From the NCBI RefSeq assembly GCF_006345805.1, contig NC_042999.1:76880001-76944000 (forward strand): a stretch of DNA of 64,000 nt, given 5' to 3'. The first letter of the stretch is position 1, and each line of letters begins with the position of its first letter. The notes beneath the pieces are model-generated. The model made no database searches. It was not told where the DNA came from and was given only the letters and a program-made list of their open reading frames with translations. A program made the translations under genes and the position numbers. Origin of the DNA: Octopus sinensis. Its lineage: Eukaryota. Of this stretch, positions 38,595 through 62,347 are shown in pieces.

Positions 38595-39815
<1,221 letters not shown>

Positions 39816-61694: not shown

Positions 61695-61747
<53 letters not shown>

Positions 61748-61804
61748 CGGAGATGTACTCGCAAAAAAGTGATTTGATCTCAGATCGTGTGCTGAAACGA
61801 AAAC

Positions 61805-62347
61805 AATTGCAGCGTGGAAGGTGTTTATAAGCCATTTAAGAAACACACAAAAGCCGTTCGATTCACTTCAACATTCAAGTTTAATTTGTCAAAATATTTT
61901 CGTCGCTAAAATCCACGACCTGTTCACTGACAAAAATCCGTGCTGCATCTGAGAAAGTAACAGTTAGTTCGTCATATATATGTACGTATGTATGTGTGTA
62001 TGTATGCATGTATGTATGTATGTATGTATGTATGTATGTATGTGTATGTATGTATGTATGTATGTATGTATGTACGTACATACGCCTGTGTATGCATGTA
62101 TGTATGTATGTATGTATGTGTGTATGTATGTATATATGTATGTGTGTGTATATGCACGCACATACACACTATAAACATAAAGCTATAAACTTGTAGTGAT
62201 GGATAGATGTAGACTGACCACTCATCACAATAATATCAAATTTCAACCTCCCCCGCCGAAACTAGGAAGTGATTTACGACCCTCACCCCCAAAAACGGCT
62301 TTTGTGTGTTTCTTAAATGGCTTACAAACACCTTCCACGCTGCAATT
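61805..62347. repeat. Inverted-repeat element (arms 61805-61858 and 62294-62347) split by (TATG)n
   Basis: AATTGCAGCGTGGAAGGTGTTT...CAAAAGCCGTT and its reverse complement. Confidence 0.9.
61885..61934 (-). ncRNA. Hammerhead-topology motif with G3-C8 variant core
   Basis: TTTGTCA-GTGAACA-G-GTCG..CGAC-GAAA-ATAT-T-T-TGACAAA. Confidence 0.6.

What the first reader, a model, noticed from the sequence alone, without database searches (positions are those of the whole stretch)
61885..61934. Hammerhead-fold RNA with a compensatory G3-C8 core swap (GUGAACA)
Seen: the minus strand folds as a type I hammerhead, with a 7-bp stem I (UUUGUCA/UGACAAA), stem II GUCG/CGAC after one extra purine, GAAA, a palindromic AAUAUU stem III and a UUU triplet. 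The core reads G3-U4-G5-A6-A7-C8-A9 rather than CUGAnGA. Known: C3 and G8 form a Watson-Crick pair in the active hammerhead, and the engineered C3G/G8C double swap restores some activity. Inference: both departures from consensus fall on that pair, which suggests a natural covariant ribozyme family in a repeat. CUGAnGA pattern searches would miss it.
Basis: partly seen in the sequence, partly recalled or inferred. Interest (0 to 1): 0.8.

Follow-up and report, generated by a model that had tools for sequence, protein, structure and literature searches.

The report
Swapped-core hammerhead in Penelope retrotransposon
About 6,000 copies of a Penelope-type jumping gene in this animal genome carry a hammerhead-shaped RNA motif whose two paired core letters are swapped (G-C) relative to sister families (C-G); the swap was likely kept by selection and the RNA is predicted to cut itself only slowly, but cutting is untested.

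Summary
The motif at 61885-61934 (-) is the minimal type I hammerhead in the terminal repeat (pLTR) of a Penelope-like retrotransposon with an RT plus GIY-YIG ORF. G3-C8 is the family state: 6,044 of 6,641 matches have it and none has C3-G8. Two sister families (47-57% protein identity) carry the same motif at the same place with C3-G8, and five pairs, 3-8 among them, change on both sides between families. So the swap is natural covariation. Cleavage is not shown, and three results speak against efficient cutting. Copies start about 58 nt upstream of the cut site, often with an extra cap-like G, so mostly uncut RNA was copied. A sister family spread with C at core position 9. The fold lacks helix III. 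Natural U3-A8 is published; I found G3-C8 in print only as an engineered mutant, but four key papers were not held. This scan noted G3-C8 before in phages and in two other Penelope-like elements. Verdict: new variant of a known kind.

The parts
61885..61934 (-). Minimal type I hammerhead motif with G3-C8 core
   Evidence: Sequence; fold; family and sister-family comparison
61928..61934 (-). Stem I, 5' strand (2.7-2.1)
   Evidence: Pairs with 61885-61891; pair probabilities 0.87-1.0 for 6 of 7 pairs in the 50-nt fold
61921..61927 (-). Core positions 3-9; G3 = 61927, C8 = 61922
   Evidence: 6,044 of 6,641 genome matches have G3-C8; sister families C3-G8
61920..61920 (-). Extra nucleotide between A9 and G10.1 (G)
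   Evidence: An extra nucleotide is typical of PLE hammerheads (PMC4209133), but the published consensus has A, C or U here
61902..61919 (-). Stem II (5 bp) with 8-nt loop; the loop differs among subfamilies
61898..61901 (-). G12-A13-A14-A15.1
   Evidence: Sequence; the same in the aligned sister copies
61893..61898 (-). Self-complementary hexamer in place of helix III (predicted to pair between two molecules)
   Evidence: No helix III in the monomer fold; centre is UA here and AU in family C
61891..61892 (-). U17 and predicted cut site (between 61892 and 61891)
   Evidence: By hammerhead numbering; inferred, not observed
61885..61891 (-). Stem I, 3' strand (1.1-1.7)
61946..61950 (-). Inferred transcription start (+1 at 61950), 58 nt before the cut site
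   Evidence: 46 of 93 sampled copies begin 45-69 nt before the cut site; 516 matches have G just before this word against 113 with A; 30 G loci share nothing further upstream
61746..61835 (-). First codons of the element's ORF (ATG 61835-61833), running into the 3' tail; out of frame near the end in this copy
   Evidence: In tandem copy L073 this ATG opens a frame continuous with the long ORF of L067
61745..62294 (-). 5'-truncated copy of a Penelope-like element (3' UTR, pLTR and tail) next to (TA)n
   Evidence: 88% identity over 497 nt to the 3' end of long copy L067; close copies
62294..62347 (+). Inverted 54-nt piece of the same pLTR, ending about 60 nt short of the tail end
   Evidence: 98% complementary to 61805-61858; typical PLE arrangement (PMC8557442)

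Best explanation
The motif is the minimal hammerhead in the terminal repeat of a Penelope-like retrotransposon, with the 3-8 core pair swapped to G-C, likely under selection to keep that pair, and it is predicted to cut slowly and only as a dimer or with help from the element's protein. Shown: the sequence, the host element, fixation of G3-C8, and both-side changes against sister families. Inferred: a capped transcript starts about 58 nt upstream of the cut site and the ORF starts 56 nt downstream of it, so cutting would remove the cap of the element's mRNA or split tandem transcripts; most RNA that was retro-copied had not been cut. Untested: any cleavage.
For: [quoted passage not shown] Fixation: 6,044 of 6,641 matches, 0 with C3-G8, 67 of 71 copies sampled by a word outside the motif; no other letter reaching 5% at 61927 or 61922 in 4 of 4 runs labelled organisms A-D, of which X15 may be the assembly's own source. 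Homology: families B and C have the motif at the same place behind a related ORF and before a similar tail word. Covariation: 5 of 11 pairs change on both sides (2.1/1.1, 3/8, 10.4/11.4, 15.2/16.2, centre of the palindrome). Two random core changes would give a complementary 3-8 pair in 3 of 702 cases (a post hoc figure). The engineered C3G/G8C double mutant partly restores cleavage in another PLE hammerhead, which needs its protein to cut (PMC11167929, passages).
Against: No cleavage data. Only 4 of 93 sampled copies and 1 of 24 mapped pLTR-ORF junction copies begin within 5 nt of the cut site. Sister family B reached 3,492 matches with C at position 9 in 79 of the first 100 listed, A in 19, so this clade can spread with an altered core. 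The extra nucleotide is G where the published consensus has A, C or U. A high-depth contig of organism B changes 15.2 to U and breaks that pair. The dimer with helix III (-22.6 kcal/mol) is no more stable than two monomers (2 x -11.0), and stem I falls to probability 0.11-0.17 when 330 nt of upstream UTR are included. The covariation rests on three lineages only, and the structure was drawn from these same sequences; by number of changed pairs, 101 of 500 shuffles did as well. Minimal PLE hammerheads cut poorly in vitro even with a normal core (PMC4209133).
Confidence: 0.58

Rival explanations
1. The hammerhead fold, 3-8 pair included, is kept as a structural element at the 5' end of the element's RNA (protein binding, translation or reverse transcription) and cuts at no useful rate.
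For: Retro-copies hold the uncut motif and start at an upstream, cap-marked site. Family B spread with C9. In the anole element, cleavage was not needed for insertion in vitro and no RNA ends mapped to the cut site (PMC11167929).
Against: The 3-8 pair is a feature of the active conformation (PMC3884650, passages), so keeping it through a double change is easiest to explain by catalysis. Cut RNAs may simply not serve as templates.
Confidence: 0.25
2. The swap was selected in an ancestral lineage whose ribozyme cut; the present family has inherited it and is no longer under selection for it.
For: No intermediate or second G3-C8 family with other stems was seen in the first 100 rows of two relaxed searches. 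Subfamilies are close to each other, so an unchanged core among them is weak evidence. Five of 30 junction loci carry G3-G8.
Against: Loop II differs among subfamilies (26.1% departure from the commonest letter) while core and stem I depart by 3.1%. The five G3-G8 loci carry internal deletions and look like duplicates of dead copies.
Confidence: 0.14
3. The hammerhead shape is a chance look-alike in the UTR of a repeat.
For: No Rfam match; modest folding z-score of -2.04.
Against: Sister families have a canonical or near-canonical hammerhead at the homologous place with the same stem II frame; 1 hit in 200 shuffled windows.
Confidence: 0.03

Closest known systems
Minimal (dimeric) type I hammerheads in pLTRs of metazoan Penelope-like elements (Cervera and de la Pena 2014, PMC4209133)
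   Same: Place in the pLTR, extra nucleotide after A9, G10.1-C11.1, long stem II, palindromic remnant of helix III, thousands of dispersed truncated copies.
   Different: 3-8 pair is G-C; the paper reports C-G and a U3-A8 variant (about 1,300 hits in Schistosoma). Extra nucleotide is G, not A/C/U.
Natural U3-A8 core variants (Perreault et al. 2011, PMC3088659)
   Same: Compensatory change of the same tertiary pair.
   Different: G-C inversion needs two transversions; U3-A8 keeps pyrimidine 3 and purine 8.
PAc hammerhead of the anole Poseidon element and its engineered C3G/G8C mutant (PMC11167929)
   Same: PLE hammerhead at the start of the ORF; the double mutant has the core seen here and partly cleaves; uncut RNA is the main template.
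   Different: There the swap is artificial and the ORF starts inside stem II; here the swap is the natural state and the ATG lies 56 nt after the cut site.
Neptune/Nematis-type EN+ Penelope-like elements (PMC8557442)
   Same: RT followed by a Cys-rich linker and C-terminal GIY-YIG; pLTRs, inverted truncated copies, optional tail, microsatellite targets.
   Different: Clade not tested against named references; the tail here is about 60 nt against 30-40 nt in the paper.

Membership tests
Hammerhead ribozyme | Three-way junction with stems I and II flanking the core | tested here: met
Hammerhead ribozyme | Literal core C3-U4-G5-A6-N7-G8-A9 | tested here: not met
   G3 and C8; the other core letters match
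Hammerhead ribozyme | Watson-Crick complementarity of positions 3 and 8 | tested here: met
   G-C here, C-G in families B and C
Hammerhead ribozyme | G12-A13-A14, A15.1-U16.1 and H17 | tested here: met
   triplet UUU
Hammerhead ribozyme | Stable helix III in the monomer | tested here: not met
   Probability 0; expected for the minimal PLE type
Hammerhead ribozyme | Match to an Rfam hammerhead model | tested here: not met
   C3-G8 sister copies also fail
Hammerhead ribozyme | Site-specific self-cleavage after N17 | not testable with these tools
   Only assembled contigs were available; genomic 5' ends show no pile-up at the site
Minimal PLE hammerhead | Lies in the pLTR of a Penelope-like element | tested here: met
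Minimal PLE hammerhead | Extra nucleotide between 9 and 10.1; G10.1-C11.1 | tested here: met
   the extra letter is G, outside the published H consensus
Minimal PLE hammerhead | Palindromic 15.2-16.2 and loop 3 allowing a dimer | tested here: met
   AAUAUU; centre swapped in family C, not palindromic in family B; dimer energy not favourable by itself
EN+ Penelope-like element | Single ORF with RT and C-terminal GIY-YIG | tested here: met
   PF01541 at E 3.3e-05 on the C-terminal part; RT and GIY-YIG clusters at 0.96-0.97; the whole ORF gave no Pfam or PDB match; RT motif names are recalled
EN+ Penelope-like element | Tandem pLTR-ORF, inverted truncated copies, tail at one end | tested here: met
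Neptune clade | Zn-finger-like Cys motif in the RT-EN linker and grouping with named Neptune RTs | tested here: inconclusive
   Cys-rich linker present; no named reference was in the tree

The most novel reading that the evidence does not exclude
This is the first natural G3-C8 hammerhead family in an animal: an active ribozyme whose core pair was inverted in a high-copy, recently mobile retrotransposon, with U17 replacing C17 to avoid a G3-C17 trap, and which tunes the element's own mRNA by slowly cutting off its cap. With the C9 sister family, the clade would be a natural series of hammerhead core variants that CUGAnGA searches miss.
Probability: 0.3. Interest if true: 0.68.

Novelty: new variant of a known kind. 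Interest (0 to 1): 0.52.

Why it matters
The 3-8 pair was found by crystallography and engineered rescue; published natural covariation that I could read is C-G to U-A only. A fixed G-C inversion in thousands of copies, with canonical sisters in the same genome as controls, would be evolutionary proof that the pair rather than the letters is required, and it shows that core-literal searches undercount hammerheads. The mapped start, cut site and ATG, together with three natural cores (G3-C8, C3-G8, C9), make the open question of what hammerheads do for Penelope-like elements directly testable. The idea is expected from mutagenesis, so the surprise is moderate.

Tried and rejected
Rfam scans: no hammerhead match. 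Search for a second G3-C8 family with other stems: the first 100 rows of two relaxed patterns (256 matches against 175 control; 264 against 47) showed decayed copies of this family, an unrelated repeat and chance hits. Sequencing runs: no RNA holder listed; all runs laid were contigs, which cannot show ends, strand or level. Cut-site footprint in genomic 5' ends: looked for, not found. A spliced first exon before the motif was considered because the upstream bases resemble a branch point and acceptor (recalled consensus); 30 loci with the extra G share no upstream sequence, so no such exon was seen. Pfam and PDB searches with the whole ORF: nothing. Dimer energy: uninformative. Papers not held: Lunse et al. 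2017, Przybilski and Hammann 2007, Martick and Scott 2006, Nelson and Uhlenbeck 2008. One of two supplementary files of PMC4209133 could not be searched. Supplements of the bioRxiv preprint were not seen.

Full report
1. Observation. Stem II has five pairs; the outermost is U-G here and C-G in most copies. The monomer folds stems I and II (-13.1 kcal/mol, z -2.04) and no helix III. A relaxed descriptor with any Watson-Crick 3-8 pair hit once in 200 shuffled windows and twice in the real window. Rfam has no matching model, but it also misses two C3-G8 sister copies.

2. The repeat. The genome is a 2.72-Gb animal assembly; I take it for an octopus from recalled repeat sequences, which no call tested. 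The 231-base query found 2,100 candidates, and the best 40 were 96-100% identical. [quoted passage not shown] Inverted truncated partners, a tail at one end only, (TA)n flanks and tandem pLTR-ORF junctions are present. These are the marks of EN+ Penelope-like elements (PMC8557442, passages). The window holds a 5'-truncated copy at 61745-62294 (-) and an inverted 54-nt piece at 62294-62347. I call this family A.

3. G3-C8 is the family state. The exact 19-mer with G3 and C8 occurs 6,044 times; freeing both positions gives 6,641; 229 lack G3; by subtraction 368 have G3 without C8; none has C3-G8 (reversed controls 0). To avoid selecting on the core I sampled by a word downstream of it (7,127 matches): 93 distinct copies from 88 loci on contig C1, of which 71 cover the motif; 67 are G3-C8, 2 G-U, 1 A-G, 1 G-G. 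Departure from the commonest letter was 3.1% in the core, 3.1% in stem I, 7.3% in stem II, 0.4% in the helix III remnant, 26.1% in loop II and 7.2-10.4% in the flanks; loop and flank values include subfamily differences, and decay after insertion is expected to be neutral, so this is weak evidence of selection. Twenty runs from 9 studies and four organism labels hold the stretch. In 4 of 4 runs laid, no other letter reached 5% at positions 3 or 8; X15 may be the assembly's own source.

4. Sister families give the control. Protein searches with two unnamed relatives returned family A and a second family, B. A canonical-core pattern revealed family C (1,018 exact matches), tied to a related ORF in the same orientation in L276. 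On a 217-residue segment A is 55-57% identical to B and 47% to one C copy; B and C group together (98/100) apart from A (100/99); all 19 rows were kept, the root is for drawing only, and no named PLE was included. B and C carry the motif behind the ORF and about 100-130 nt before a tail word shared with A. Commonest states (A / C / B): 3-8 G-C / C-G / C-G; 2.1-1.1 A-U / G-C / A-U; 10.4-11.4 G-C / A-U / A-U; 15.2-16.2 A-U / G-U / G-C; palindrome centre UA / AU / AA; N17 U / C / C (one B copy, L082, was binned with C by the script, and the A2 rows there were partly chosen for lacking G3). On 14 hand-picked copies, 95.5% of cells pair and 5 of 11 pairs change on both sides, while slid registers pair at 23-57%. 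These are three lineages, not 14 events, and the structure came from the same sequences; by count of changed pairs 101 of 500 shuffles did as well. Since C3-G8 is the general hammerhead state, A is the derived one (inference). Two random core changes would give a complementary 3-8 pair in 3 of 702 cases (post hoc).

5. Where it sits in the RNA. In L073 the pLTR runs straight into the ORF, and the ATG at window 61835-61833 opens a frame continuous with the long ORF of L067. Of the 93 sampled copies, 46 begin 45-69 nt before the cut site, 31 begin 6-44 nt before it, 12 further upstream and 4 within 5 nt; the sampling word cannot catch copies that begin well after the site. Of 30 junction loci, 24 could be mapped: 8 begin 52-60 nt before the site and 1 within 5 nt (some are duplicates). 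The base before the start word is G in 516 matches, A in 113, C or T (the templated state) in 639, and 30 G loci share nothing further upstream. I read this as a capped transcript starting at 61950, copied to its end (inference; the cap-G reading is recalled knowledge). The hammerhead then fills the 5' leader: start, 58 nt, cut site, 56 nt, ATG. The templates were mostly uncut.

6. Mechanism. Most likely a slow hammerhead that needs a partner strand for helix III or the element's protein; cutting would decap the mRNA or split tandem transcripts, and is not needed for each round of copying (0.58). This fits the anole element, where the hammerhead cut only with protein, the C3G/G8C mutant partly cut, and uncut RNA was the main template (PMC11167929, passages). 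Against it: no footprint of cutting; family B spread with C9 (79 of the first 100 of 3,492, counted by eye); the extra base is G, outside the published consensus; a high-depth organism B contig breaks 15.2-16.2; the dimer is not favoured in energy, and a long upstream context disrupts stem I. Rivals: a non-cutting structural role (0.25), an inherited relic (0.14), chance (0.03). U17 may avoid a G3-C17 mispair, since a G3-C8 variant was reported less active with C17 than with G17 (PMC3884650, data not shown there); but U17 is common in PLE hammerheads, so this is weak.

7. What is in print. Natural U3-A8: PMC3088659 (section 8 and passages) and PMC4209133 (first two of four parts, one of two supplements). 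Engineered G3-C8: PMC11167929, PMC8495972, PMC3884650 (passages). Passages of PMC6765202, PMC10085705, PMC13725137, PMC2837043, PMC12192606, PMC7151607, PMC6155905 and bioRxiv 2026.07.22.740005, the first of two parts of PMC2920678, and a term search in the supplement of PMC8557442 showed no natural G3-C8. Nine full-text searches listed no paper on it. Lunse et al. 2017 on PLE hammerhead variants, Przybilski and Hammann 2007, Martick and Scott 2006 and Nelson and Uhlenbeck 2008 were not held, so absence from print is not established. This scan's own unchecked notes record G3-C8 in phage hammerheads and in two other Penelope-like elements; no note covers this sequence or genome.

8. Verdict. 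A real, fixed, compensatory core swap in a known kind of RNA in a known kind of element: new variant of a known kind. It fails the literal core consensus and meets the pairing rule behind it; catalysis is untested. Interest 0.52.

Noticed in passing
L072:4459-4507 and other family B loci: Sister family B, with long open ORFs, has C at core position 9 in 79 of the first 100 listed of 3,492 matches, A in 19, T in 2: a second natural core variant that spread.
   Followed up: partly
window 38724-38760 (-): A second, canonical minimal hammerhead (C3-G8, extra A, 4-bp stems I and II) in another repeat next to (TA)n.
   Followed up: no
G000, genome-wide: A relaxed canonical pattern has 18,272 matches against 1,412 for the reversed control; the first 100 rows fall into several families, one dominant.
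   Followed up: partly
window 61951/61950; L399-L428: Many short copies begin with an untemplated G just before the inferred start (516 G, 113 A, 639 C/T), as expected if a 5' cap was reverse transcribed (interpretation recalled).
   Followed up: partly
L291, L294, L295, L298, L309: Five junction loci with G3-G8, A as extra nucleotide and internal deletions; probably duplicates of dead copies.
   Followed up: partly
L090:475 (+): A U3-A8-like motif with a 5-bp stem II on the strand opposite a family B ORF; belongs to another repeat.
   Followed up: no
run X19 (organism B), laid on window 61841-61965: One contig of depth about 1,500 differs at 17 letters and 3 gaps, keeps G3 and C8, has G at 2.1 (G-U pair) and U at 15.2.
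   Followed up: partly
L321, L326, L333, L361, L384: Five loci share the same inversion junction inside the motif, 33 nt before the cut site; perhaps a small fold-back subfamily.
   Followed up: no
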